A stretch of 64,000 nucleotides of DNA, from contig NC_073387.1 of the NCBI RefSeq assembly GCF_028641065.1, positions 13,826,001-13,890,000 on the forward strand, read 5' to 3'. This stretch comes from Leucoraja erinacea (Eukaryota). Below, one piece after another: positions 17,389-48,601 of this stretch. A program made the translations under genes and the position numbers. The stretch's first letter is position 1, and the number at the start of each line of letters is the position of its first letter. The notes under the pieces are model-generated. The model was given only the letters and a program-made list of their open reading frames with translations. It ran no database searches and was not told the origin of the DNA.

Positions 17389-17788
17389 TTAAAAGCCCAA
17401 ACTTGACAACTTCCTGTTTGCACGGTATATTGATTTTAGATAAAACACTACCACTTATGGCTGTGATTTTTGGCCATCTTACTCTGTCCCCCTCCGCTCA
17501 TCAGGTGCAGATTATTCATCCCATCAATGAAAAATAAAAGTGTTATTGGTGTTTAAAAAATATTGAGAATCTCTCTCCTGTCAATCATGCAATGAAGGCC
17601 ACGCCCCTTCCGGTGGGAGGGGGGAGGGATTATAAAACCCAGAAGTTTGGGTGTGGCTCAGTCTCTGCAAGATGGGAAGGGAGAGATCACGAATCTGTCT
17701 GAGCTGTGAATCAACTGAGCACACTGAATGTCTACTGAACTGTGTGTGGTTTTGTGGTGGTTTGTGTGGTTTTATGGTGGTTTCACTC

Positions 17789-19090: not shown

Positions 19091-21143
19091 GCACTGGAAA
19101 GACCAAAGTTAAGTCGTTAGCTGAAGAAGAAGGAAGTAGATAGGATGTGAGGTTTGAGAGGGGGGATTAATGAAAGGGGAGAAGCAGGTGGTGGGACAGG
19201 ACTTCCAAAGAGTAGGATCTAGGCAGTTAAAGGCAAAGCTTTTAATTTTGATACACAGAAGGTCAAGATGAGAGGAATAGAGGATTGGGGAGATTACAGT
19301 GGTAATGGCAATGTGGGCAGACAGGGATTGAAACAGTCTGCACAGAATCGAACTGCAGGGTGATCTAGACATAACATGGGTTGAGATGTGGGTACGGGTG
19401 CTTTGGTTGAGCTAATGTTCGTAGAACGAGGAAAATGGAAAACCACCAAACACTATTGAAATCTGGAGGTGACAAAGACATTGATGACGTTCTCTCCACT
19501 GTAAGTGGGCCAACATTTGCATGGGTCTGCTTGACAATCAATCAGAACAGGGTAATCAAAGTCTGTGTTTATTGAGATGATACCAAGCAAGGCATGGGGC
19601 TGAGGCAGACCCCAGGAGGAAACTGGGATATCAACTTTAAAAGAAATGAACAAACCCTGTCAGTGTTAATCAATTGTCTATTCAGGATTCCTGGATTCGG
19701 AAAATAATTTTAGAAAGGAAAATTAAATAAAACTGACTTTAATTAAATTGTAAATGGACTTGCACTGGAGTAAATAACCATTGCGTCATCAAAGGATATC
19801 TGACCACAGAATAATTGAAGACTATGTCTAAACTGTGTTCATTATGGCGTCTGTCCGATATTTTATCAAAAGAACAGGGGTGGTGGGTGGGTGGCATGAT
19901 GAGGGGCAGATGCACAGATTGTTCACAATGCCCCTCTCCCTTAATGCGTTGGGTGCCAAGGATGAAGTGTGCCTCACATGCACCACACCTGTTAAAGCCC
20001 CCAAATCTGCTGCCCCAGGCTATTGAAATTGCCTGGCACAGCTCCAGCACAAGCCTGGCTGATGGCAAAGTCTAACTCCGTGAACCAGAGATGAAAACAA
20101 TTGCAGTGGGGCAAACGACCTTCTTACGCACCGTCAAATTCACTGTAAAATTTAACATGGAAACGGTGCTTTTAACAGCACTGTGCTTCAAGCTAAATTT
20201 ACTCGCAATGTGTTTCACTCCCGTGTCCCTCTCTTGCAATCTGTCTTGATTACTTCCTGTTTGCCGCTGTTTCCAGACCGGCAAAGAAGGCAAGTACACG
20301 GTTCAAAGCTGGTCTCTTGTCATCATGCTTTTAACTGGAAGCTCTATCTGATCTTTCACGTTAACTGTTAGTGGTTATTAAGTGGTTGAAATGTTCAGCG
20401 CAGGGAGTCGTTACAAGGTGCTCGAAACTTAGGAGGCAGTCGGTTTTGAACAGGTGTGAGTTTCTTCTCCTCTCTATGCAACAACAAACAAATGGTAAAG
20501 ATCAAACCATTTCCTATGTGCACACTTTCTATTCATTCCTGTTCTATGTGGACTGTGGAACTGAATTAATTGCAGCTGCAGATGAAAGGAGGGATTAGCC
20601 GGGTCCTAATGGGACCACAGCGAGAGTAAGCGAAAGGGTGGACAGTTTGCAGGATGAAGTAAGTTTCTTTGGCACAAGCACATATGGGGACGTGTAAATC
20701 TTAATTTAACGCTGTGATCTTGATGTTTTGCTTTTGGGTTATATCCAATAGTATGATTGGAGTGGTCCATTTATTGAAACACTGTTCTTATTTCCTATTC
20801 CAATTTGGTTGTTGGTGCAGTCTGCATGAAAACTGACTTTAAATCCAGGAATCTTTTTGTGTTACTGAGTGAACCTTTCTGGTCTAAATGGTAACAGTCC
20901 ACATGACTCTCTGACTGAAAACTCGGCGTCACCTCCCTTTTTAATGAACATTGAGGAATGTTGAGAAACGAGTGCTTTGTGACTTTGGTCCAAATATGTT
21001 TTAAGTGAAACTAGTGGGAACTATATAAAATGTCTAACAAGTCCAGGCAAATGAATAGCAATTCATTGAAAACTTGGAATGATGTGAAATGGAACACCAC
21101 CCGAGGAAAAAGAAGAAGCTAAGTTGAAGTTTGTTTGAAATCT

Positions 21144-34014: not shown

Positions 34015-34068
34015 CCGTTGATTTATTCCAGGAGAGAAGACCCGTATGAGCACCGAACTGGAGGCAGA
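34015..34068 (+). promoter_or_regulatory. Splice acceptor and 5'UTR part of the first coding exon
   Basis: ttgatttattccag|gagag acceptor, with the exon starting at 34032, 37 nt before the ATG. Mammalian FGF1 similarly splices alternative non-coding first exons to an acceptor a few tens of nt upstream of the ATG. Confidence 0.6.
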
Positions 34069-34237
34069 ATGGATGTTGGAACAGTGACAAGTTTATCAAA
34101 CTTGACTGATTCCTTCACTCACTTCCCGGCGAGTTACAAAGACCCAAAACTCCTGTACTGTGAAAATGGAGGGTACTTCATGCGCATTCTCCCTGATGGA
34201 ACAGTGGAGGGGATAATCAACCGCGACGACTTATACA
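34069..34237 (+). CDS. fgf1: FGF1/FGF2-subfamily fibroblast growth factor (FGF1-like), coding exon 1
   Basis: ATG in strong Kozak context (agaATGg). Translates MDVGTVTSLSNLTDSFTHFPASYKDPKLLYCENGGYFMRILPDGTVEGIINRDDLY, matching the FGF1 YKKPKLLYCSNGGHFLRILPDGTV segment. Phase-1 donor a|gtgaga; the 169 nt length equals FGF1 coding exon 1. Orthology to FGF1 versus a paralog is unresolved. Confidence 0.93.
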
Positions 34238-34547
34238 GTGAGAATCCTTTTCAGTCAGCGTGTGCTCTGTACTGTTTAAATATGTGTGTGTGTTTGGACT
34301 TGTGTTGCTTGGCAACTGCTTTGAAACTTAGCAAGTTCCTAAGTTCAATTCACTGAGAACTCCTTAGCAGCTAGAAAAACAAGGATTCAGGCAAAGCTGC
34401 AGGGGATAAAGAAATCTTACGTTTAAATGAAAGCAACATTATTTCATAGAACAAATTTGATGTGAACTTTGCTGCAAATTGAAACTTAAGTTTTTCCGGA
34501 GCAGTGAGGGTCACTGTGTATAATCGCACCTCGTCGTTCAAAAGTGA

Positions 34548-34854
34548 AGGGGCTGTCCCACTGTACGAGCTAATTCAAGAGTTCTCCCGCGTTTCCCCTG
34601 ATTCAAACTCGGAGAATTACGGTAATAGCCGCTCGTAGGTATTCGGGGCTCTCGTGGACATTATTCAACATGTTGAAAAATCTTCACGAGCTTACCGCGT
34701 TTTCTGTGTACCTGCCGTTAGTGTTACGAGCCGCTAAGAGACGTCCCAAGCTCCGAGGTACCCGCTACGTACATTCTACGTGCTTACCACGAGTTTGTTT
34801 TTTTTTAAACTCGGGAGAGCTCTTGAATTACCTCGTACAGTGGGACAGGCCCCT
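34548..34854. mobile_element. PIF/Harbinger-like MITE in FGF intron 1
   Basis: TIRs AGGGGCTGTCCCACTGTACGAG / CTCGTACAGTGGGACAGGCCCCT with 3-bp TSD TGA. Confidence 0.8.
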
Positions 34855-35021
34855 TGAGAGTTCAACAAGCCTTGAAGAACTAAAGCTTTCACTTTCATCA
34901 ACCCTGTTTTTTTTCACTCTTTTTCTCACTCACCACATCCTCTCACCGTCCCCAGGTTATCTCTCTTCCAAGGTGAAAATTGGGGAACTATTTGTGTATT
35001 GGTTAGGTTTTATGTCCTAGT

Positions 35022-35247
35022 AGATAGGCGCAGAATGCTGGAGTGACTTAGTGGGACAGGCAGCATCTCTGGATAGAAGAAATGGGTAACGTTTTGAGTC
35101 TAGACCCTTCTGCAGTCTTAAGATTGGGTCTCAACCCGAAACGTCACCCATTCCTTCTCTCCAGAGATGCTGCCTGTCACGCAGTCATTCCAGCATTTTG
35201 TGTCTATCTTTGGTGTAAACCAGCATCTACAGTTCCTTCCTACACAT
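35022..35247. mobile_element. Fold-back Penelope-derived element in FGF intron 1
   Basis: Inverted arms aatgctggag...ctccagagatgctgcc...ccagcattttg. The sense core is mutated to CTTAAGA at 35117. Confidence 0.75.
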
Positions 35248-35899
35248 AGTTATTACATAGTCGTGTTCATCTCTGTCTGGTATGTAGTAATGGGCCTGCT
35301 ATTTATTGGGGAGATGTGGGAAGATGCATAGGGGAGGCATCAGGGTCAAAATGCTGTCAGTCCAGTGGAGGAAAAGGAGGGGCTGAAGTTCATGGGCTTC
35401 TTTCAGGGGCTTGAGTGGAACGTCGCAGAACCTCCTGACACAAGTTACTGTTGCATTTACATTGTGGTGCTGATTTTAGTCGTTAACAAGGCCAGTGTGC
35501 AGTTGACTGAACTGAGGCTGATTTTAGTGTTCTTCTACTGAACATGGAATTCATCTCTTCAGGAAACTGAGATCAGTCAATCTAAAGGGTTGATATCACT
35601 GTGCCTACTTCCATCAGGAGAGAAAGGGGGGCAAGGTCTTGTACAAGAGGATGCAATAAGAAAACATTTATTGGACCTGCAAGTGTTTAGAGTTTGGAGT
35701 TCTCTGGCAGGATTGGTGATGGAAATGGATTGAATTGTAGTTTCAAAAGGGAAGTGGATGGATAGAATGTGAAAGGGGATGGGGAAATGACAGGAGAGTA
35801 GAATGAGTTGAATTGCTCTTACACTGGACTAGTACAGAATTGGCAGGGTGAATTGCCTTCTTCCATGCTGTAACCATTCTTTTAGTATTAGTCGAGTCT

Positions 35900-37005
35900 A
35901 ATTTAGTTCAGAGATACAACACGGAAAAAAGCCCTTTAGCCCACCGACCAGCGATTCTCGCACACTAACGCTATCCGACACACACTAGGGATAACTTACA
36001 TTTATACTAAGGCAATTAACCTACAAACCTGTAGATCATTGGAGTGTGGGGGAGAAAACCGGAGATCTCGGAGAAAACCCACACAGGTCATGGGGAGAAT
36101 GTACAAACTCTGTAAAGACATAACCCACGCAGTTGCAGGAAGAATGTGCAAATTCCGTACAGATAGCACCCTTAGTCAGGATCAAACCCGGGTCTCTGGT
36201 GCTGTAAGGCAGCAACTCGACTGCCGAGCCACTGTGCCACCATTTTATTTTGCATTATGTTCCCAAACTAGTGAGCATTGAGGATAAAGGAAACTAGATA
36301 CATTCATGAAAAGGTGCTTTTGAAAGACTGAATAATATTTTGTTTGTGAATGCTTAAGAATTACAGTATGCCATAACCTGCTATATTGGCAACACAAGCC
36401 AAGAAAATTAATAAAACCAATAAAGCTCCATTAATCCAGCAAGTTTAAGAATTTGATGGTATCAGACTGTCTGGACTATTGGATGTTATTTCCAATTAAT
36501 ACTGATTAATTCCAATTAATTTGTATTAAGTTCATACAATTTTCGAATGAACAGATAAATATCATGGGAGCAAAGGAAATAGACCCAGGTGAATTTAAAG
36601 TGAGTGTGGGAATAGAGCCTAAGTGCGATAAAAAGAGGGTGCCCTGTCATTAGGATTTTGGAACAATCAGCCTGTGGATTACCTGAGTGTTGCTGTATTT
36701 TACTCAATTCTTTTTAGTTTAGCACTTAAAAGAAACAATGCGGAAACAGGTCCTATGTCCACGCCGACCAGCGATTACCCCATGCACGAGCACTATCCTA
36801 CCATTTACAATTTTTACCAAAGCCTATTAACCTATAAACCTGTATGTCTTTGGAGTGTGGGAAGAAACTGGAGCACCCAGCGAAAACCCACGCAGGTCAC
36901 GCGGAGAATGTATAAACTCCGTACAGACATCACCTGTAAGGAGGATCGATCCTGGGTCTCTGGAGCTGTATGGCAGCAACTCTATCGCTGCACCACTGTG
37001 CCACC
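35900..37005 (-). mobile_element. Two HE1-type V-SINEs (~35900-36242 and ~36715-37005) in FGF intron 1
   Basis: Reverse-complement consensus, each ending in actgtgccacc. Confidence 0.75.
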
Positions 37006-38239
37006 AACTTCCCTCTTGTTCTATTTCTCTCCTTTAACATTTAGACTAACTGGTGTGGGCTTGGCATGGTGTTGGCCCTTCACTGCTCAGATTAACTTCT
37101 TTGTTTCCATGCAATCATAAAAGCAGAGAAAATCTATGGCATGAAGAAAGCCCTTTGGCCCATCAAGTACAATTTAAACCCATCTCGAAATGCATTTTCC
37201 AAATCCCAGTAGCTATCAACAGACAATGACCTCAATCCAAGTACCTTTTCAATGTGGTGAGGATTGCTCCCACCTGCATAATTTTTGTGAGACAAATTGA
37301 GATCCCCACTGCCCCTTGGAAGGAAGGGAAACTTCCCAAAGTCCCCTGCAATCCTCGGTCCATTACTTTAAACCGAGCTGTTGACCTCTTTGCTAAGGAA
37401 AACAGTTTATTTCTATCCACCTTAACCAGGCCTCTCGTAACTTCACATACTCACTCACCCCTCTGCCTCCTCTGTTCCAAAATAAACAAATCAGCTGGCT
37501 AAACTTTCTTCATAACTAAAATCCTCCAGTCCTGACATTTTCGATTAAATCCCCATACCTTCACCACTGATCTCACGCTCTCCCTGAAATTTGCTTTTCA
37601 CACAAGTCCCACTGTGTTTTTCTTTTGCTAAGTCACATAATTTTGAGCCTTATCTTCCCAAAGTCATATCTTCTGTTTTCTTACTCCGTTGCACAGTACT
37701 TTTCTCGCATCCTTTTCTCAATTTCTGGTAAACGAGAAGGAAAGAAAACAGAATTGATGGAAACAGTGCAGTCAAGGCACCATCCGTCTGAAACAAGGAC
37801 GGGAAGCAGCTAAAAAAGATCAAAGCAGCCACATCAAGTGCTCTGATCTCCTAAAGCTGTAGGACAAATCCTCATCATTTAATCCGGATAAGTATTTTAG
37901 CCTTGAACTCTAAGGCTACTAGCTGAGAAATGTTTGCTGTGTGACTTGGTGCTTTACCTTTACCCGAACAGAGCTTCGGAGAACAACAAACTACCGGTGG
38001 CTGTGAGAACCTTTTCTACATGAGATCCTCTTTCATTTCTTTCATCAGATGTGAGGTCCCAAAGCCATGCGCGTTTGTAGGGTAGTTGGTCTCTGTAAAC
38101 AAAAATAAAACCCTTAATGTGCACGGAGTGGATGAGAAAATGGGATAACATCGAACCAGTGAGAATGAGTGATCCATGGTCAGCGTGGATTCAGTGGGCC
38201 AAAGGGACTGTTTCTATGCTATATCTCTAAACTAATGTA

Positions 38240-38833
38240 CTCAAATAATGCTGGACTAACTCAGTGGGACCAGCAGCATCTCTGGAGAAAAGGCAAGGGT
38301 GTCATTTTGGGTCGAAATCCTTTTTCAGACTGTCAGAGGAGAGGGAGACATAGAGATATAGAAGGGTAAGGTGTGAAAATGACAGATCAAAGGGCTTGGT
38401 GAGCAAGGAAAATGTAGAATGGTTAATTTTTAGTCGAGGGGAAGGTGACAACGAGGCACGAGGCATACAATCAGTAAAATTTAATCAGGTGGACAGTGAA
38501 ATTTGATGGGGAACTAGGATGGGGGAGGGATGGAGAGAGAGAGGTAAAGCACTTGACGTTAGAGAAATCAATATTTCTGGGTTTTAAGTTGCCCGTGAAA
38601 TATAGAGGTGCTGTTCCTCCAATCTCTGTTGAGAAGATCAGTATGAGAATGGGAGGGGGAGTTAAAGTGTTTAGCAACCAGGAGATCAGGTAGGCTTAGA
38701 CAGAGTGTGCCGAGGTGTTTAGCAAAACAATCGCCGAGCCTGTGCTTGCACTCGCCGATATATAGGAGTCCACACTTGGAACAGCGGATACAGTAGATGA
38801 GGGTTGGAGGAGGTGCAAGTGAACCACTGCCTC
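38240..38833 (-). mobile_element. 5'-truncated Penelope-like retroelement: GIY-YIG endonuclease remnant plus hammerhead-type terminal repeat
   Basis: The minus strand of 38833-38700 reads RQWFTCTSSN/(frameshift)LIYCIRCSKCGLLYIGECKHRLGDCFAKHL, a PLE GIY-YIG motif with CxxC. An EEQHL-type C-terminal remnant follows, then the degenerate ctgaa..cgaccc..ctccagagatgctgc terminal repeat. Confidence 0.85.
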
Positions 38834-38942
38834 AAAAATGTACTCGAATAATCCATTAACACGTTTCAGAAGCTTTTCGGCCATATCAACGTCATTGTGC
38901 CATGTTGTGGCAAATATAATTCATCCTTCCCTTCTTTTTCAG

Positions 38943-39046
38943 TTCAGCTTCAGCTACAAGCCGTGAGTCGAGGAGTGGTGACTATTCAAGGGATTGAGGC
39001 CAGACACTACCTAGCAATGAGTGAAAAGGGACAGCTTTATGGTTCG
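38943..39046 (+). CDS. fgf1: FGF1-like, coding exon 2
   Basis: Pyrimidine tract plus ttttcag| acceptor and tcg|gtaagt donor. Length is the canonical 104 nt of the FGF middle exon. Encodes (I)QLQLQAVSRGVVTIQGIEARHYLAMSEKGQLYGS in phase with exon 1. Confidence 0.95.
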
Positions 39047-39532
39047 GTAAGTAAAGACCTGAGCATTTCACTGAAACATCATTGTTGTATTTACATTGCA
39101 CACTGTATCTATATCCAGGGATACAGACACTCCCCGACTTCCATCAGGGATATGTTCAGTGAAACCTTACGTAAGTCAGATTTTATTTAAGTTGGAATCC
39201 CTATCCCCATCAGCTGCACAAAATATTTCACTGATGGGATTCAAACTCACATCTCTAGATGAATAGCGTAAGCCTCTGCATGCCTCACCAGTCTAGTGAT
39301 GTTCACTTGCAAAACACTTGATTAACGGGTGGTTTAGATTAGTACATGGAACACAGAACAGCTCAGGAACAGGCCCTTCAGCTCAGAATGGCTGTGCTGA
39401 GTCGAATGTCAAATTCAACTAATCCCCTCTGTCTGGATGTGATCCATATCCCTCCATTTCTGGCATCTTCACGTGTCTACCTACAAGCATCTTAAACACC
39501 GCTATTGTGTCTGGTCCACCATCCTTGGTTTA

Positions 39533-39840
39533 AAGCCCTGTACCACTGTACGAGCTAATTCAAGAGTTCTCCCGAGTTTGCCCTGATTCGAACTCGGAGA
39601 TTTTACGGTAATGGCCGCTTGTAGACTCTCTTGGACATTCTTCAACATGTTGAAAAATCTTCACGAGTCTTCCCGAGCTTACCGCGTTTCCCGAGTACCT
39701 GCCGTTAGCGTTACGAGCCACTAAGAGACGTCCCCGAGCTCCGACGTACCCGCTACGTACATTCTACGTGCTTCCACAAGTTTGATTTTTTTTTAACTCT
39801 GGAGAGGTCTTGAATGAACTGGTACAGTGGGGCAGCGCTT
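39533..39840. mobile_element. PIF/Harbinger-like MITE, second copy, in FGF intron 2
   Basis: Colinear with 34548-34854 (cactgtacgagctaattcaagagttctcc...) with 3-bp TSD TTA. Confidence 0.8.
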
Positions 39841-41160
39841 TTAATCAGATTCTCCAGCAGCTTTCAAAAGACAATTGAAGATACTTTTAAAGGGGATTAA
39901 TTTACAGGTTTACAGTGGCTTCTCCAGTTGAGTCTCTATCTCATAGCTCCAGTGATCTGATCTCTAGGACTGAATGTGTGGAGTTTGCAGGATCTCGCTG
40001 TGGGTCACCCTGGATAAACTTCTCTTTGATGATTGGAACTAATGTGTAGGTAGGTGGTAGAATCTGGGGGAGCTGAGGGGAATGTTAAGAGAGTTAAAAA
40101 TGGGATTTGTATATGATGGTGCTCCATGGACAGTGTGGACTTGTTGGGCTGAAGAGCCTGTTAGAACTTAAAATAATACAGCACTGGAAGAGGCCCTTCA
40201 GCCCACAATGTTTATGCCATACCTGGTGCCTAGTTAAACTGATCTACCTGCCTGTACATGATCCATATCCCTCCATTCCCAGTACTTCCACGTGCCTATC
40301 TAAATGCCTCTAAAACGCCATTATCGTATCTGCCTTCACAACCACTACTCTCTGTAAAAACTTGCCCGCACATCTCCATTTAACTTTCCCCCTCTCACCT
40401 TCTCCCTCTAGTGTTGGACATTTCCACCCTGGGAAAATGATTTTATGTTCTAAGTTTCCCAACTTCTATACTCAATACCCTGACTGATGAAGGCCAATTT
40501 CCCAAAAGCTTTCTTGACCACCCTATCTCCATGTGCTGTGCTGTGCGGTGCTGTGTGATTCTCTGACTCTTTAGGGGGAAATTGCTGGAGCATGAAATGG
40601 TTTGAGAGCTGACGTGGAGTTAATGGGTTAAATAACCATTTTCTGTTCTGTGAGATCGTGCCATTCTTGCAGTATCATAATTATCTGTGGTAGATTGAGA
40701 AGATGTTCAGCAGGTTAATGCTTTGTGCATGGACTTTTCTTTAAAATAAACAACAAGAGAGATTTAATCACCAAAGACCAGCAGGAGACATGTACAAAAC
40801 ATTCAACTCTTCCCAACATATTCAGCTCCAATATTAACAACGGAAGTACAGACAAAACTCTATTCTTCGAACCCTAGCCCCTCATTATTGCCTTCCCAGC
40901 TAAGGGGGAAAGTGGGTCCCTTTTATTAACTGTATCTATGCCCTCTATTTTTAATCGACAAAAACAGAAATAAATCTCCCCTCAGTGTCCTCTATTCCAA
41001 AGAAAGCAAGCCGAGCGATACATAATTTTCTTCACAAATACTTCCTGGATTTTATTCCAGATCACATCTGATGATTCCTAAGAGTCATCAATTTGAAAGG
41101 GAAGGGTTGTAAGAAAAGACCCCCTAGCCCAGTGGCTAATATTCTCTGCACCAGGATCGT

Positions 41161-41470
41161 GCGGCACGGTAGTGCAGCGGTAGAGTTGCAGCCTTATAGC
41201 ACCAGCGACCCGGGTGCGATACTGACTACGGGTGCTGTCTGTACAGAGTATGTACGTTCACCCCCTGACCTTATGGGTTTTCCCCGGGTGCTCCAGATTC
41301 CTTCCACACTCCAATGACGTACAGGTTGGTAGGTTAATTAGTTTTGGTAAAAATTGTAAATTGTCCCTAGTGTGTAGGATAGTGCTAGCGTGCAGGAATC
41401 GCTGGTCGGTGCGGACTTGGTGGGCCAAAGCACCTGTTTTGGTGCCGTATCTTTAAACTAAATTAAGCTA
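41161..41470 (+). mobile_element. HE1-type V-SINE, near full length (FGF intron 2)
   Basis: gcggcacggtagtgcagcggtagag...tgtccctagtgtgtaggatag...ctaaattaag. Confidence 0.85.
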
Positions 41471-41679
41471 ATCAGGAGCTCAGGATTTCATGCCTCACTC
41501 TGCGACCTTGAACTAAAAATCTAAGTTCAGTTTAAGAGTAAATTAAATGTCTTACTCAAAGTCGTATTATTGCCGGGTTAACGTCCTCGTACAGATTATA
41601 TTGGCTGCTTTCTAAGCTGTACCCATTCCTGACTGCTCCGACTTGTTTTTACCTCTGCTTGTGCTTCTAATGCAGACAG

Positions 41680-41985
41680 AGCACTGCCCTGTCAGAGGTA
41701 CTGATCGTCAGAGGAAGTATTAAAGTTTCATCTGCTGACATAAATGATCTCCTGCCGCTTTTTTAACAAGAAGTTGGGGAGCTTACTCAGTTATCCTGGC
41801 CCATATCACTGGCTCGGCCTACTGCACCAAAGAGCCATTTGTCCATTTACTTCACTGTTGTTTCTGAGACTGTGCACTTAGCAAACAGCCCACCATGCCT
41901 TTTGCATTAAAGCAGTGACTAGACTTTAAAAAGAACTATTAAGCACCTTGACTACCTGAGATTTGGAAATGTAATTCTTCCTTTG
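41680..41985 (+). mobile_element. Ancient DeuSINE (SacSINE/AmnSINE-like) relic; further relics at ~47030-47300 (+), ~57075-57525 (-) and ~60880-61312 (-)
   Basis: Degenerate Deu-domain and tail motifs (tcctggcc.atat, cagtgacta.acttt.aaaag; cagccaatttgcac on the - strand copies), recognised by eye. Confidence 0.5.
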
Positions 41986-42546
41986 TATTTTCTATTTTAG
42001 CAGAGTAGTAGTAGAGCCATGTCCTGTGCTCTAAAAGGATTCTTTGATCACAAAGAGCTCTGTATAATAACTCGTGTATCCATAACAACTTCCTTCCCAC
42101 TCCCCCTCCTCTTCTGCCTTCCTTCCTTGCTACTCTTTCTCATGCTCTTTCCTGTCGAACCATAAATCACATCCCACAGCTTGAAGAGATAAGTATAGGG
42201 GAAGTAGCATCTTAGTAAATTACTGTTATAAGACAAAGGAAACAACACTCACCTGCACACACTGAGCTCAGGACAGCTTCTCTTCCCCGAAGCAAAATAA
42301 ACTGGAAAAGCAACTGCGAGAAAAGGTATTCTTCAAGTTAATGCCATGCAATATCAGGTAATTATTCTGCTTGACAGCAAACAAGCTGACTTTAACAATA
42401 TATATTTTTAAATTGATATCAAAGTTTGTTCTCAGTTGGAGTGTGCTTCTTCATTTTTTATGTTAAAATAAAGGCTTTGACACTAATCCATTCACCAAAA
42501 TGTTCTTCTTGAGAGAATGAACTATTAAAGTTCCTGAAGAACTGGA

Positions 42547-43025
42547 AAAGGTGCAGAGAGGATTTACGAGGATGTTGCCAGAACCTGAGGGCCTGTGCCA
42601 TAGGGAGAGGTTGAGCAGGCTAGGACTCTATTCCTTGGGGCACAGAAGGATGAGGGCTGATCTATTAGAGGCTTACAAAATTATTTGAGGTAGACGCACA
42701 GAATTTCTTGCCCAGAGTAGGAGAATCGAGAACCAGAGGACATACATTTATGATGAGGGGGATTAAGATATTTAATACAAACCTGAGAGGTAACGTTTTC
42801 ACACAAAGGCTGGTGTGTATATGGAACAAGCTGCCGAAGGAGGTAGTTGAGGCAGGTACTATTGCAACGTTTAAGAAACGATTAGACAGATACATGGATA
42901 AGACAGGTTTAAAGGGGTATGGGCCAAATGCAGGCAGGTGAGACTTGTGTAGATGGGACATGTTGGTTAGCCTGGGCATGTTGGCCGGAAGGGCCTGTTT
43001 ACGTGCTGTATCATTCTTTGATTCT
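42547..43025 (+). mobile_element. CR1 LINE 3' fragment (FGF intron 2)
   Basis: PRVGESRTRGH...FTQRLVCIWNKLP. Confidence 0.85.
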
Positions 43026-43191
43026 TTAACTCACCACCCTTGATATTCCATTGAAGGTACAAATGAGCCCAGTTGCCACAGGAGATCATAGAATCTCATG
43101 CTATTTTTGGGTGGCACTCACTTCATAAGCTCGTAAGTTCACAAGGAAGAGGAGCAGAATTAGGCCATTCGGCCCATCGAGTCTACTCCAT

Positions 43192-44561
43192 GGGGTATCA
43201 CAAGGCTCAATGCTGGGACCGCAGCTATTTACAATATACATCAATGATTTAGATGAAGGGATTCAAAGTAACATCAGGAAATTTGCAGATGACACAAAGC
43301 TGGGTGGCAGTGTGAACTGCGAGGAGGATGCTATGAGAATGCAGGGTGACTTGGACAGGTAAGGTGAGTGGAAAGATGCATGGCAGATGCAGTTTAATGT
43401 GGATAAATGTGAGGTTATCCACTTTGGAAGCAAAAACAGGAAGGCAGGTTATTATCTAAATGGTGTCAAGTTGGGGAAGTACAACGGGATCTGGGGATCT
43501 TTGTTCATCATTCAATGAAAGTACAGGTATAACAGGCAGTGAAGAAAGCGAATGGCATGTTGGCCTTCATAACAAGAGGAGTTGAGTATAACAGCAAAGA
43601 GGTCATTCTGCAGTTGTACAGGGCCCTAGTGAGACCACACCTGGAGTATTGTGTGCAGTTTTGGTCCCCTAGTTTGAGGAAGGACATTCTTGCTATTGAG
43701 GGAGTGCAGCATAGGTTCACGAGGTTAATTACCGGGATGGCAGGACTGTCCTATGCTGAGAGAATGGAGCGGTTGGGCTTGTATACTCTGGAATTTAGAA
43801 GGATGAGAGGGAATTCTTATTGAAACATATTAACGATTTGGACACGCTAGAGGCAGGAAACATGATGAGGTACAGGAGCATTAGCTGCAAAACCAGCAGG
43901 ATGCTCCTCAGCTTCTTCCCGCAGGCTATAAGACTGATAAACGGACTTTGCCCCCTGCCAAAGTATCGCGCACCAACCACCAACCTGGACACACTGCAGC
44001 AGAGCCACTGTCGTGCCGCTGCCGATCGGAACGCCTGTTGATGTTTAGTAGAGAGTAGAGTGTTTAATTTGTTCATGATATATGTATTTTTATTTCTATT
44101 TATTTTTTACTGCACAGTGAATGGACACTGGTTGAGCAACGTTTTTTTTGTTTCCTCTGGGTATGCGAGTACTCAGGAAAATGACAATAAAGATATACTA
44201 CTACTACTACTACTACTACTACTACATGTTCCCGATGTTGGGGGAGTCCAGAACTAGAGGCCACAGTTTAAGAATAAGGGGTAAGCCATTTAGAACGGAG
44301 ATGAAGAAACACTTTTTCACACAAAGAGTTGTGAGTCTGTGGAATTCTCTGCCTCAGAGGGCGGTGGAGACCGGTTCTCTGGATACTTTCAAGAGAGAGC
44401 TAGATAGGGTTCTTAAAGATAGCGGAATCAGGGGATATGGGGAGAAGGCAGCAACGGGGTACTGATTGGGGATGATCAGCCATGATCACATTGAATGGTG
44501 GTGCTGGCTCGAAGGGCCGAATGGCCTACTCCTGCACCTATTGTCTATTGTCTATTGCCTA
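43192..44561 (+). mobile_element. CR1 LINE with RT core, interrupted by the Rex1 fragment
   Basis: QGSMLGPQLFTIYINDLDEGIQSNIRKFADDTKLGG and VRPHLEYCVQFWSP, with a (tattgtc)n tail. It is itself inserted in an opposite-strand CR1 tail. Confidence 0.9.
43865..44223 (+). mobile_element. Rex1/Babar-type LINE 3' end inserted in a CR1
   Basis: RYRSISCKTSRMLLSFFPQAIRLIN C-terminal motif, aataaa plus (cta)n tail, and acatg duplicated on both sides. Confidence 0.75.
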
Positions 44562-45544
44562 TCATTCAATCATGGCTGATCTATCTTTCCCTCTCAACAT
44601 CGTTCTCCTGCTTTCTCCCCATAATCTTTGACACCCTTACTAATCAAGAATCTATCTATCTCTGCTAAAAAAAACACTCAATGACTCGGCCTCCACTGCC
44701 GTTTGTGGCAGGCTATCTTCAGTCAATTTTTCCAGAGACCAGTCTGAAACTGTTCCCAGAAAATTGGGCATCTACTGACTTGTGGTAACAATGTCAATAA
44801 TTGACGAATAGGGCTCAATTGAGGTTGGTTGAGAGATCGGGAATACATTCTTAGCTTATTCGGCCATTCAGCAGTCTTATAAGAACAGCGTAAAGGCTGC
44901 TGCTGAATCTGGTGGTAGGTGCTTTCAAGCTTTGGAACTTACACCTGACAATTTTCCAAAATCTGGAAACAAGCAAAGAAACCTCAAAGAAGGAGTGTGG
45001 GTGGGACAAGGAGAGGAGGAGCAAAAGGGAGGGAGACAGAGAGCAGAGTTTAGGATGAGGTAGCCATATTTTCTCATCCAAGTTTAACACCTCATTAAAA
45101 AGTTACAATTACTAGCAGACGTTTTTAAGTTGGAATTGTAAAAATACCTTCATTACATTGGAATATAATGTAAAATACAATGTTAAAGAAGTTGATCGTT
45201 GTATTATCATAATTTGGACATGAAGTGATTTACAGACTACAAATAATCATGTGATTATTGATTAAATAGTAAATTTATTGCAGTTTTAATCACATGATTA
45301 AACAATAGTAAGATATTATTTTTGAATAATGCAAAAAGCAAATGCCTTGATTTAGGAGTGGAAAATAAGGAACGGACTGATGAGGATGAAATGGAGTGGC
45401 TGTGCTGAGAAATTGAATTAACATTTTTCGGAAATGCACAGTTTCCAAACTATAACATGAAAAGCCTCCCAAAGCATTTTAAGCAAATGTTTCCAATTTT
45501 TAAAACTTCTTTAAAATAGCACGAAGGAGATACACCACTGTTTT

Positions 45545-46445
45545 AATCAACAAAGTGCTGAAGGGACTTGTATGTGTCGGAAGGAACTGAAGATGCTGGT
45601 TTAAACCGAAGACAGGCACAAAAAGCTGGAGTAACTCAGCGGGTCAGATACCATCTCTGGAGAAAAGGAATAGGTGACATTCCGACCCTTCTTCAGACCC
45701 GACCCAACCCTAAACATCAGCTATTCCTTTTCTCCAGAGGTGTTGTCTGACCCACTGAATGACTCCAGCTTTTTAATGTCTATCTTCTGCTGAAGGAACA
45801 GCAGGTCAGGCAACATCTGAGGAGGGATATGGACTGATGACATTTCAGGTCAGGACCCTTATTCAGACTGATGGCATAGAGGGGAGAAAGCTGGTAAAGA
45901 GAGATGAAGGGAAGAGGGAGTTGATGGGTGTGTGCAGTTGAGAAGTGACTGGGCAATGGGTGGAGACTGTAACAGGTGAAATGGAGACAAAAGGGTGCTC
46001 GATGAAGGATGACTGAAATGTAATGCCGGAGAGAGGGACACTGGGTAGAAGTAGATACGGGGACAAAGTGGAAGGAGAGAGGGGATTAAAAGAAATATAG
46101 GGAATGTGGAATAGGGCGGGGAGACGTCAGCAGAAGGAGGCGGGGAATGGAACAGAGTAGAAACATAGAAACATAGAAAATGGGTGCAGGAGTAGGCCAT
46201 TTGCCCCCTCGAGCCAGAACCGCTATTCAATATGATCATGGCTGATCATCCAAACCCCGTTCCCGTTTTCCCCCGTGACGGGATAGTGGGAGTAAGTTTT
46301 GTGCATGGGGAGGGGTGGGGAGAAAATGGATGCGAAAAGGGGGTGGGGGGAAGGGTGTGATGACCTGAAATTGGAGAATTCAACGTTCCTGCCGTTGAGG
46401 CTATGTAGTCTGGCGAAGCAAAAGATGAGGTACTGCTCTTTCAAA
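45545..46445 (-). mobile_element. Penelope-like 3' fragment with nested CR1 tail and nested fold-back element
   Basis: ORF KEQYLIFCFARLHSLNGRNVEFSNF resembles the PLE endonuclease C-terminus (EQHLIFRLG.LQP.G.N.EFSNF). Terminal repeat at ~45800-45870, CR1 tail at ~46160-46275, nested palindrome at ~45570-45787 flanked by tgctgaagg. Confidence 0.7.
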
Positions 46446-48406
46446 TGTTCTTCTGCGCATTGTTTAAATGCTGAGCGATTTACATCTGGGAAGTTTCTCT
46501 TTGTTTATACTCTATATGCAGCACTGAGGCATGTCAGGGCTGGTGAAATAGATTGTTTCCCTGTGTGACCATAAGCATTGCCAGAGATTATTTTTGCTGG
46601 ATAAAGATGACATATTGACATGTTACAGAGACGGGACAGGTAGTTGGAATTAAAGTGCAATTTGACCCTGATTTCTGTGTAAAGAGGAACAGACGAAAGG
46701 GACTGAATGGAGTATACTAGTGGCGAACAGAGCAATGCAGTTTGAAGACGCACTGTTCTGCCCCAGCAATGTAATTAATCCTGTGTTCATATATTCTTAA
46801 TGATTGCATTAATCAACACATGAAATTCCATAATCAGTAGCCAAAATAGATGAGCTAGCTCTTGCATTAATTATATAAGACACTGGGCAGTTTTCTCTTA
46901 CTCATATCACGCAGTGGAATTAGTACATTATGAAGATCAGCTTTAATCAGTGAATAATATTCTTGTCTCCATATCATAAGGTTGTGGACTCCAAAATGGC
47001 ATTTCCTGAGGAAGTTATATTATCAGTGATCTCGGCCATCAGATGAAACCTTAGACCAAGGATTTGTTTGCCTATTCATAAAGATGAAAAAGACCTCTTG
47101 GGACCAGTCGAAGGACTTTTCTCTGAAGCCACGGCCAATATTCTTCCTCCCCTTGCATTAACTAGTTGTACGCCACACTCCCTGTTTATTGGGCCTTGCA
47201 TTGTGCGAATTGCCTGCCAAAATGGTCCATTGGGGATGCGCTTCAGAAGAAGTAAATCACTTGCAATGAAACGCATTGGAAGGTCTTGTGATCATGAGGA
47301 GACGAGATGTTATTGCTAAAACCCAAGGTCCCAAGAGCAATCACTCCTACATCAATCTAGTAATCCACTTCCTGCACTAAGTCCTTCACTTATTCCAGGG
47401 CATAGCAATTCCTGGCTGACATTTGATGTTCTCCTTTCCTTGCCTTGAGGGTGCTGATTCACACATTCTGCAGCTGCACGTAGCCTACTTATTATCTCTT
47501 TGCAGTGATTGTTGGCAGGGTCTTTTATGGTGGGTGGGGACAATGCAACCTCACTGTCAGTGGCCTCGGCTAATATTCACGCAGGCTCAGACTCAAACAG
47601 ATGACATTCAGCTGCCGAACCCCTGGGTGGTTCCCTCACCCTTCCTTAGCCAGCAGGCAAACAGCACATCCAACCCCAGTCCTGACAGTCTGCTGGAGAG
47701 GGAGGGAGGGTGGACTCCAGACCGGCTGACCCCGGATGAACCAGAACTGCAACACTGCAGCGGTTCAAGAAGGCAAGCACATCAGGCCCTTTCACAAGGT
47801 CAATTAGGGATGGGCTGGTACTACTGGACTTGCCTGCAACACCCACATCCGCAGAAGAATAAAGGAATCATTGAGGATGGCGATTAACATGAAAGGCTAA
47901 GACATGGCACGTTGCTTTGACTGGGCTCATGTTACCTTAGACATAGAAGATTAAGGAGCAATTTAATTGAGGTGTTGGGATGATTGAAGGAATTGTTGAT
48001 GTAGATAGAGGGAATCTTTTAACTTTAGTGCAGGGGGGTGCAGTACAAGAGCCATAAAATTAGGCCCAGGCCGCAAGCATGTTCTCCTTCACTGAAAGGG
48101 TGGTGGAGATCTGAATTCACTGCCCACATCAATAGAGAATTTAAACCCAAAATTAAATGAGTTTTATTACAGTAGGATACAAAGAGAAATGGCAGCATCT
48201 CTGGAGAAAAGGGATAGGTAACGTTTTAGGTTGGGAGCCTTAAATCTGAAGATTGAGTACAGACTTTTCCTTTTGCTCCAGATTCCAGCATCTGCAGTCT
48301 CTTGTGTCTCAAGCTGGGAACCTCCTTCTCCAAGACTTTGCCTATAAGCCACCAGGGGGAGTGTGTTTCATTTCAATTGTTTTTATTCCTTCTATTTTAT
48401 ACACAG

Positions 48407-48601
48407 CCATCTCCAACTGAAGAATGTTTCTTCCTGGAAACCCTGGAGGAGAACAATTATAATACCTACAAGTCCAAAGAGTACGTGGAAAGGAACTGGT
48501 ACGTTGCCTTTCGGAAGAATGGGAATGCCAAGCCTGGACCTAAAACGGGGCCTAGACAGAAAGCAATCCTGTTTCTTCCCATGCAAGTGATAAGTGGTTA
48601 A
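48407..48601 (+). CDS. fgf1: FGF1-like, coding exon 3
   Basis: Acceptor tattttatacacag|. Encodes PSPTEECFFLETLEENNYNTYKSKEYVERNWYVAFRKNGNAKPGPKTGPRQKAILFLPMQVISG-stop (TAA). 195 nt; total CDS 468 nt = 155 aa, as for FGF1. Confidence 0.95.
   Translation, partial: PSPTEECFFLETLEENNYNTYKSKEYVERNWYVAFRKNGNAKPGPKTGPRQKAILFLPMQVISG

What the first reader, a model, noticed from the sequence alone, without database searches (positions are those of the whole stretch)
34069..48601. FGF1-geometry gene with FGF2-type residues: candidate third FGF1/2 paralog
Seen: the 155-aa protein aligns without gaps to human FGF1 as recalled, at roughly 55-60% identity by eye. It has FGF1 exon sizes (169/104/195) and the FGF1-type two-residue-longer SKEYVERNW loop. 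Yet it has FGF2-type motifs: KDPK, LQA..RGVV.I.G, ECFF, NNYNTY, WYVA and KTGP.QKAILFLPM. Established: mammals have only FGF1 and FGF2 in this subfamily, both lying near sprouty genes in a four-fold paralogon. Inference: this is either an ohnolog lost in mammals or an FGF1 retaining ancestral states.
Basis: partly seen in the sequence, partly recalled or inferred. Interest (0 to 1): 0.7.

Follow-up and report, generated by a model that had tools for sequence, protein, structure and literature searches.

The report
Ordinary skate FGF1 gene beside SPRY4
This is a spliced growth-factor gene of a skate that sits next to SPRY4, as FGF1 does in humans, and is most likely the skate's ordinary FGF1, its FGF2-like residues likely being old or lineage-specific states and not signs of a third gene.

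Summary
The gene is real: three exons (169/104/195 nt), 155 aa, intron 1 seen spliced in three runs, 56% identical to primate FGF1 without gaps and 54% to primate FGF2. It is a skate gene already filed as FGF1 or FGF1-like. It lies 161 kb from SPRY4, with an NDFIP beyond and NR3C1 plus an ARHGAP26-type gene on the same chromosome, 33 Mb off. Four genome searches found one other FGF1/2 locus, a canonical FGF2 beside SPRY1, and none beside SPRY2 or the fourth Sprouty. Three trees put it in an all-chondrichthyan clade, sister to bony-vertebrate FGF1, but support is weak and AU tests do not reject a place beside FGF2 (p 0.18) or basal to both (p 0.29). The intermediate look is genuine (11 FGF1-type, 10 FGF2-type sites, interleaved). 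KDPK and the long loop are shared with hagfish; the RGVV stretch with lamprey; NNY and KTGP are skate-specific. A 2026 survey names the white-shark counterpart fgf1. Verdict: FGF1 ortholog with ancestral states (about 0.93), resting on synteny and gene count more than on the tree. Side note: these skates have Ile at the conserved Arg50.

The parts
34069..34237 (+). Coding part of first coding exon (169 nt, 56 codons + 1 nt; phase-1 intron follows)
   Evidence: donor confirmed by spliced contigs
34032..34068 (+). 37 nt upstream of the ATG in the same exon, behind an AG acceptor at 34030-34031; in frame, it gives the N-terminal extensions of annotated isoforms
   Evidence: contigs begin to fit at 34030-34031 and one carries 131 further letters that do not lie on the adjacent DNA; isoforms P0138, P0139
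38943..39046 (+). Exon 2 (104 nt)
   Evidence: both ends match contig pieces; Pfam FGF
48407..48601 (+). Exon 3 coding part with TAA stop (195 nt); holds the 9-residue loop and the basic C-terminal region
20654..20658 (+). Candidate end of an upstream leader exon (ATG + 2 nt, then GTAAGT) that would give the 169-aa isoform P0138
   Evidence: pattern match only; splice not seen
17728..17741 (+). Candidate end of a second upstream leader exon that would give the 172-aa isoform P0139; weak donor, next to a 48-bp tandem array
   Evidence: pattern match only; splice not seen

Best explanation
This is a spliced, 155-aa FGF1/2-subfamily gene of a skate, 161 kb from SPRY4, and most likely the one-to-one ortholog of FGF1, predicted to work like FGF1 as a beta-trefoil growth factor that would leave the cell without a signal peptide and signal through FGF receptors with heparan sulfate. 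Shown: gene structure, splicing of intron 1, neighbours, a separate FGF2, the family match. Inferred: orthology (from position, gene count and complementary taxon distribution) and the reason for the mixed look: FGF1 and FGF2 split not long before sharks and bony fishes did, so the chondrichthyan FGF1 line kept some pre-duplication states that bony FGF1 later changed (KDPK, the GVV-x-I-x-G stretch), shares others with FGF2 by retention or convergence (WYVA, ECFF, final LPM) and gained some in skates alone (NNY, KTGP). Export route, receptor and heparan-sulfate binding are carried over from mammalian FGF1 (own knowledge) and were not tested.
For: Position: the nearest Sprouty (C11:14.035 Mb) is, by exact look-up, 'sprouty homolog 4'; an NDFIP exon follows at 14.164 Mb; NR3C1 (Pfam GCR, 1 match) and a GRAF-type BAR gene lie on the same contig. 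Human SPRY4, FGF1 and NR3C1 lie at 141.6, 142 and 142.6 Mb of chromosome 5 (PMC2924844, passages). Gene count: exon 1, exon 3 and a primate FGF1 as queries each give this locus and one other FGF1/2 locus, C1:162.90-162.95 Mb, which has the short loop, 181/104/189 exons and SPRY1 440 kb downstream; none of 60 Pfam FGF matches lies within 10 Mb of SPRY2 (C6:27.9) or the fourth Sprouty (C12:23.8). Trees: chondrichthyan clade sister to bony FGF1 (71/63; 85/65; 0.946); the FGF2 clade has its own shark, ray and chimaera members and excludes the gene (100/98). Among 243 proteins no chondrichthyan falls among bony FGF1 and no bony vertebrate in the skate's clade. Derived states shared with FGF1: LLYC (8/8 chondrichthyan, 15/20 FGF1, 0/17 FGF2, 0/2 hagfish) and [KR]K[ND]G (8/8, 18/20, 0/17, 0/2). 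Spliced upstream leader as in mammalian Fgf1 (PMC8749990, start of abstract). Computed pI 6.1 against 6.5 for primate FGF1 and 9.5-9.6 for FGF2. Model pLDDT 84, matching FGF1 and FGF2 structures at TM 0.80-0.84. The white-shark counterpart is named fgf1 in PMC13591910 (supplement).
Against: The tree alone does not settle it: AU tests do not reject the clade as sister to FGF2 (p 0.176) or outside FGF1+FGF2 (p 0.291); sites polarised by hagfish tie 3 to 3. FLPM (8/8 chondrichthyan, 17/17 FGF2, 0/20 FGF1, 0/2 hagfish) and WYVA (8/8, 17/17, 3/20, 0/2) are not explained by the hagfish state. Identity to ray FGF2 (58.8%) is as high as to any FGF1 tested (53.5-58.1%). Local order differs from human: SPRY4 is on the opposite strand to the gene (same strand in human) and the ARHGAP26-type gene is 33 Mb away. 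Acidic pI is not diagnostic (coelacanth FGF1 9.1). In one search teleost FGF1 fell outside the FGF1 clade and hagfish fell with FGF2, so that tree has artefacts. Genome searches score only the best candidates and the assembly may be incomplete.
Confidence: 0.93

Rival explanations
1. Hidden paralogy: an old third FGF1/2 gene (another ohnolog moved beside SPRY4, or a tandem duplicate made before the shark-bony fish split) was kept in chondrichthyans, while bony vertebrates kept the other copy.
For: AU tests do not reject the basal or FGF2-sister placements; polarised sites tie; FGF1 is not next to the ARHGAP26-type gene and SPRY4 is inverted, so the region has been rearranged; this genome keeps a third NDFIP-type locus, so extra ohnologs of this paralogon can survive.
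Against: Needs two reciprocal losses, plus a move or a tandem copy next to SPRY4. No species among those retrieved holds both types. No FGF near SPRY2 or the fourth Sprouty. The best tree reproduces the species order in all three builds.
Confidence: 0.04
2. FGF1 partly overwritten by FGF2 through gene conversion or late resolution of the duplicated region in the chondrichthyan line.
For: 10 FGF2-type states at 38 diagnostic columns, including WYVA and FLPM, fixed in all 8 chondrichthyan proteins.
Against: FGF1-type and FGF2-type sites are interleaved over all three exons (12 runs, 11.5 expected by chance). Grouping with chondrichthyan FGF2 is rejected (AU p 0.0016). The RGVV stretch is absent from all 5 chondrichthyan FGF2 tested.
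Confidence: 0.02
3. A lineage-specific duplicate of FGF2 that drifted towards FGF1.
For: About equal identity to FGF2 and FGF1.
Against: Outside the 100/98 FGF2 clade; nesting with chondrichthyan FGF2 rejected; has the ancestral long loop that all 17 FGF2 lack; sits at the SPRY4 locus.
Confidence: 0.01

Closest known systems
Chondrichthyan FGF1 / 'FGF1-like' (NCBI names for skates, rays, sharks, chimaera; white-shark LOC121281571 = fgf1 in PMC13591910)
   Same: P0001 is the same protein; 70-90% identity to the other seven genera; same motifs
   Different: The skate cluster has its own changes at 49-53 (including Ile for Arg50), 126 and 141
Bony-vertebrate FGF1 (acidic FGF)
   Same: 155 aa without gaps, 56% identity, SPRY4 neighbour, spliced upstream leader, LLYC and K-K-N-G states, near-neutral to acidic pI as in primate FGF1
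   Different: Asp in place of Lys25 in the N-terminal basic stretch, GVV-x-I-x-G in place of the tetrapod GEV-x-I-x-S, WYVA and FLPM, no Cys132, SPRY4 inverted, ARHGAP26-type gene far off
FGF2 (basic FGF)
   Same: 54-59% identity, same intron phases and 104-nt middle exon, WYVA, ECFF, FLPM
   Different: FGF2 has a loop two residues shorter (17 of 17), pI about 9.5, sits beside SPRY1, and exists as a separate gene in this genome
Cyclostome Fgf1/2 (single gene)
   Same: KDPK, EEN and the 9-residue loop in hagfish; nearly the same LQA..RGVV.I.G stretch and long loop in lamprey (read by eye)
   Different: 49% identity to hagfish; Arg in place of Leu28 and Lys128

Membership tests
FGF family, FGF1/2 subfamily | FGF domain with beta-trefoil fold | tested here: met
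   Pfam PF00167; model pLDDT 84, top 50 Foldseek rows all FGF1 or FGF2
FGF family, FGF1/2 subfamily | Three coding exons with 104-nt middle exon and phase 1/0 introns | tested here: met
   the same plan in this genome's FGF2
FGF family, FGF1/2 subfamily | No cleavable signal peptide | tested here: inconclusive
   No predictor was run; the N-terminus aligns without gaps to primate FGF1 and is low-confidence in the model
FGF1 (ortholog) | Adjacent to SPRY4, then NDFIP1 | tested here: met
   SPRY4 161 kb away, named by exact look-up; NDFIP exon 289 kb away (that it is NDFIP1 rests on recalled resemblance)
FGF1 (ortholog) | Adjacent to ARHGAP26-NR3C1 as in mammals | tested here: not met
   Same contig but 33 Mb away. 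This is a mammalian gene order, not a defining trait of the protein; it shows an intrachromosomal rearrangement
FGF1 (ortholog) | No other FGF1 in the genome; FGF2 separate | tested here: met
   (best candidates only are scored)
FGF1 (ortholog) | Forms a clade with bony-vertebrate FGF1 | tested here: inconclusive
   Best tree in 3 of 3 builds; alternatives not rejected, p 0.176 and 0.291
FGF1 (ortholog) | Upstream leader exons spliced onto the first coding exon | tested here: met
   One contig with 131 extra 5' letters and an AG acceptor 37 nt before the ATG; two candidate exons by pattern only
FGF1 (ortholog) | Activates all FGFR isoforms; non-classical export | not testable with these tools
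   Needs assays; the roles are own knowledge of mammalian FGF1
FGF2 (ortholog) | Member of the FGF2 clade, short loop, beside SPRY1 | tested here: not met
Third FGF1/2 ohnolog | Beside SPRY2 or SPRY3, coexisting with FGF1 and FGF2 | tested here: not met
   It is beside SPRY4; no FGF near the other two Sprouty genes; no third locus

The most novel reading that the evidence does not exclude
Chondrichthyan 'FGF1' is a hidden paralog: an old third FGF1/2 gene at the SPRY4 locus, kept in sharks, rays and chimaeras while bony vertebrates kept the sister copy. The tree tests do not exclude it.
Probability: 0.04. Interest if true: 0.55.

Novelty: already known. Interest (0 to 1): 0.1.

Why it matters
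As it stands, little: it is an annotated gene at the expected place. Its modest use is as a natural midpoint between FGF1 and FGF2, for asking which residues made FGF1 a pan-receptor ligand, and as a caution that motifs read off human FGF1 and FGF2 do not diagnose orthology. If the hidden-paralog reading held, it would revise the history of the FGF1/2 subfamily, which PMC13591910 calls unresolved. The skate-specific loss of Arg50, the residue whose mutation removes integrin binding in human FGF1, is a small testable natural variant.

Tried and rejected
Glucosamine_iso (PF01182) was searched to place GNPDA1: 5 matches, none on C11, uninformative. A scan for other genes over C11:13.63-14.08 Mb sent 149 of 3,243 candidate open stretches to Pfam and found only reverse-transcriptase/endonuclease pieces and one NDUFB2-like stretch; the ranking was weak (the gene's own exons ranked 556 or lower), so the upstream neighbour remains unknown and 'no gene between FGF1 and SPRY4' is not shown. 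No holder run was on record as RNA; this is not used as evidence. Two look-ups of earlier findings returned nothing. PMC3420111 (passages) has no shark data; PMC12846694 (one passage) only lists the genes together in a pig region. Two KTGP hits among bony FGF1 are at another register and were disregarded. In one search the 'FGF1' class of 89 held two proteins of other subfamilies (P0249, P0259), removed by hand to give 87. Lamprey and amphioxus Fgf1/2 were not returned by the protein searches, so they are missing from the trees and were only read by eye in a supplement. The exon sizes and the long loop were rejected as FGF1 evidence (shared with FGF2 and hagfish respectively). No complex was folded: it would only echo solved FGF-FGFR structures.
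Full report
1. Observation. The gene has three coding exons on the + strand: 34069-34237, 38943-39046 and 48407-48601 (169/104/195 nt, GT-AG introns), giving 155 aa. The protein reads the same as P0001, whose cluster the sources name FGF1 or FGF1-like in two skates. It aligns to a primate FGF1 at 87 of 154 without gaps and to a primate FGF2 at 84 of 157 with 5 gaps. Intron 1 is spliced out (34237->38943) in contigs of 3 of 4 runs laid. At 38 columns where bony FGF1 (20 proteins) and FGF2 (17) have different majority states, the protein follows FGF1 at 11, FGF2 at 10, neither at 17, so the intermediate look is real.

2. Gene count. The window is G000:C11:13,826,001-13,890,000. Exon 3 as query gave 15 matches of 24 candidates: itself, one at 68% on C1:162.95 Mb, the rest at 49% or less, those I translated being other FGF subfamilies by eye. 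Exon 1 gave 2 matches of 4 candidates, the same two loci. A primate FGF1 gave 14 matches of 31 candidates, the four best being exons 3 and 1 of these two loci, with this locus first. The C1 gene is a canonical FGF2: short loop, exons 181/104/189. So no separate 'canonical' FGF1 was found; the searches score only the best candidates and the assembly may be incomplete.

3. Synteny. Pfam Sprouty gave 7 matches of 9 candidates, four Sprouty and three that read as SPRED genes by eye. Exact look-up names the one at C11:14.035 Mb, 161 kb beyond the stop codon, 'sprouty homolog 4'; the one 440 kb beyond FGF2 is SPRY1; C6:27.9 Mb is SPRY2; C12:23.8 Mb is filed as 'SPRY2-like'. An NDFIP exon lies at C11:14.164 Mb. 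NR3C1 (C11:47.54 Mb) and a GRAF-type BAR gene (47.32 Mb; ARHGAP26 by that pairing and by recalled resemblance) are on the same contig, 33 Mb off. In human, SPRY4, FGF1 and NR3C1 lie within about 1 Mb on chromosome 5, on one strand (PMC2924844, passages). None of 60 Pfam FGF matches (76 candidates) lies within 10 Mb of SPRY2 or the fourth Sprouty, where a third ohnolog would be expected. Against a perfect match: SPRY4 is inverted relative to the gene and the ARHGAP26 link is broken; my scan for the upstream neighbour was too weak to name one.

4. Trees. With 47 proteins and two hagfish as outgroup (JTT+I+G4, 152 columns), eight chondrichthyan proteins form a clade (100/98) that is sister to bony FGF1 at UFBoot 71, SH-aLRT 63; FGF2, with its own shark, ray and chimaera members, is 100/98. 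With 35 of the 47 (12 dropped for speed) under LG+C20 the joint clade has 85/65. A FastTree of 243 proteins puts 14 chondrichthyan rows beside 81 rows whose named members are all bony FGF1 (0.946), but pulls teleost FGF1 out and hagfish towards FGF2. AU tests: sister to FGF2 not rejected (p 0.176), outside FGF1+FGF2 not rejected (p 0.291), together with chondrichthyan FGF2 rejected (p 0.0016). The tree thus favours but does not prove FGF1. What it adds is the taxon pattern: no retrieved species has both a skate-type and a bony-type FGF1.

5. The motifs (counts: chondrichthyan 8, bony FGF1 20, FGF2 17, hagfish 2). KDPK 6, 0, 8, 2: ancestral. The 9-residue loop 8, 18, 0, 2: ancestral, the shortening is FGF2's. 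LQA..RGV[VI].I.G 7, 0, 5, 0: among FGF2 only in tetrapods, in none of 5 chondrichthyan FGF2, and present in lamprey Fgf1/2 (read by eye in the supplement of PMC13591910). NNYNTY 2, 4, 17, 0: only the two skates among chondrichthyans. KTGP: this skate alone among the eight. ECFF 6, 1, 14, 0; WYVA 8, 3, 17, 0; FLPM 8, 0, 17, 0: truly shared with FGF2 and not explained by hagfish; retention from the jawed-vertebrate ancestor or convergence (inference). Shared with FGF1 against FGF2 and hagfish: LLYC 8, 15, 0, 0 and [KR]K[ND]G 8, 18, 0, 0. Polarised single sites tie 3 to 3. The two kinds of site are interleaved (12 runs, 11.5 expected), which gives no sign of a conversion tract.

6. How it likely works. 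The model is a confident beta-trefoil core (mean pLDDT 84; residues 1-21 low) that matches FGF1 and FGF2 structures equally (TM 0.80-0.84). Tyr30, Cys31, Asn33, Cys98, Glu102, Glu105, Asn107, Lys128, Lys133, Lys143 and Leu148 are kept in all 14 chondrichthyan rows; that several of these serve receptor and heparin binding and export is my recall. An AG acceptor 37 nt before the ATG and a contig with 131 extra 5' letters show a spliced leader, as described for mouse Fgf1 (PMC8749990, start of abstract); two candidate leader exons end at 17741 and 20658 by pattern only. Computed pI is 6.1. Inferred, untested: a leaderless, heparan-sulfate-dependent FGFR ligand like FGF1. One departure: Ile at Arg50 in this skate cluster, the integrin-binding residue of human FGF1 whose mutation also lowers stability (PMC6721657, abstract); Met there in 9 squamate proteins shows that loss of the Arg is tolerated elsewhere.

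7. What is known. PMC13591910 (outline, sections 13 and first part of 14, supplement passages; figures and the body of Table 1 not seen) surveys FGFs in white shark, gar, zebrafish, mammals, cyclostomes and amphioxus, lists the white-shark counterpart of this protein as fgf1 next to fgf2, finds one Fgf1/2 in each cyclostome and calls the FGF1/FGF2 path unresolved. Five paper searches were run; none was aimed at earlier reports of a third paralog or of the Ile50 variant, so I make no claim that these are not in print.

8. Verdict. Observation confirmed; headline not supported. Most likely the ordinary chondrichthyan FGF1 (0.93), on synteny, gene count and taxon pattern; hidden paralogy 0.04, conversion 0.02, FGF2 duplicate 0.01. 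Already known; interest 0.1.

Noticed in passing
window 34216-34218 (codon 50); P0001 cluster: Ile replaces Arg50 in all 6 full-length members of the skate cluster, while 8 other chondrichthyan proteins, 76 of 87 bony FGF1 and 57 of 58 FGF2 have Arg; 9 squamate FGF1 have Met and 2 bovid Lys. Arg50 (Arg35 in the short numbering) is the integrin alphaVbeta3 site of human FGF1, and its mutation also destabilises the protein (PMC6721657, abstract). The nearly invariant Gly141 is Arg in the same skates.
   Followed up: partly
G000:C1:163.94 Mb (L037): A third NDFIP-type locus beyond FGF2 and SPRY1, besides those near SPRY4 (C11) and SPRY2 (C6); mammals have two (own knowledge). A retained ohnolog of this paralogon; literature not checked.
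   Followed up: no
G000:C11:14.035 Mb (L016): SPRY4 is on the opposite strand to FGF1, whereas human SPRY4 and FGF1 share a strand and so do FGF2 and SPRY1 in this genome: a local inversion or an assembly flip.
   Followed up: partly
G000:C11:47.32-47.54 Mb: The ARHGAP26-type gene and NR3C1 are paired but 33 Mb from FGF1.
   Followed up: partly
L081:9283-9537 (C11:14.069 Mb, -): A stretch that covers nearly the whole NDUFB2 Pfam model in one open frame, between SPRY4 and the NDFIP gene; possibly a processed copy.
   Followed up: no
G000:C13:54.58 Mb (L010): An FGF exon that reads like the white-shark Fgf25 of PMC13591910 (by eye), a gene absent from lobe-finned vertebrates according to that paper.
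   Followed up: no
G000:C35:12.80 and 12.83 Mb; C94 and C1262: Pairs of FGF8-type matches with equal scores: a tandem pair 28 kb apart and a pair on two small contigs; recent duplicates or assembly duplicates.
   Followed up: no
G000:C12:23.85 Mb (L013): The fourth Sprouty is named 'sprouty homolog 2(-like)' by the sources in rays and sharks; by position it is probably the SPRY3 ohnolog (inference).
   Followed up: no
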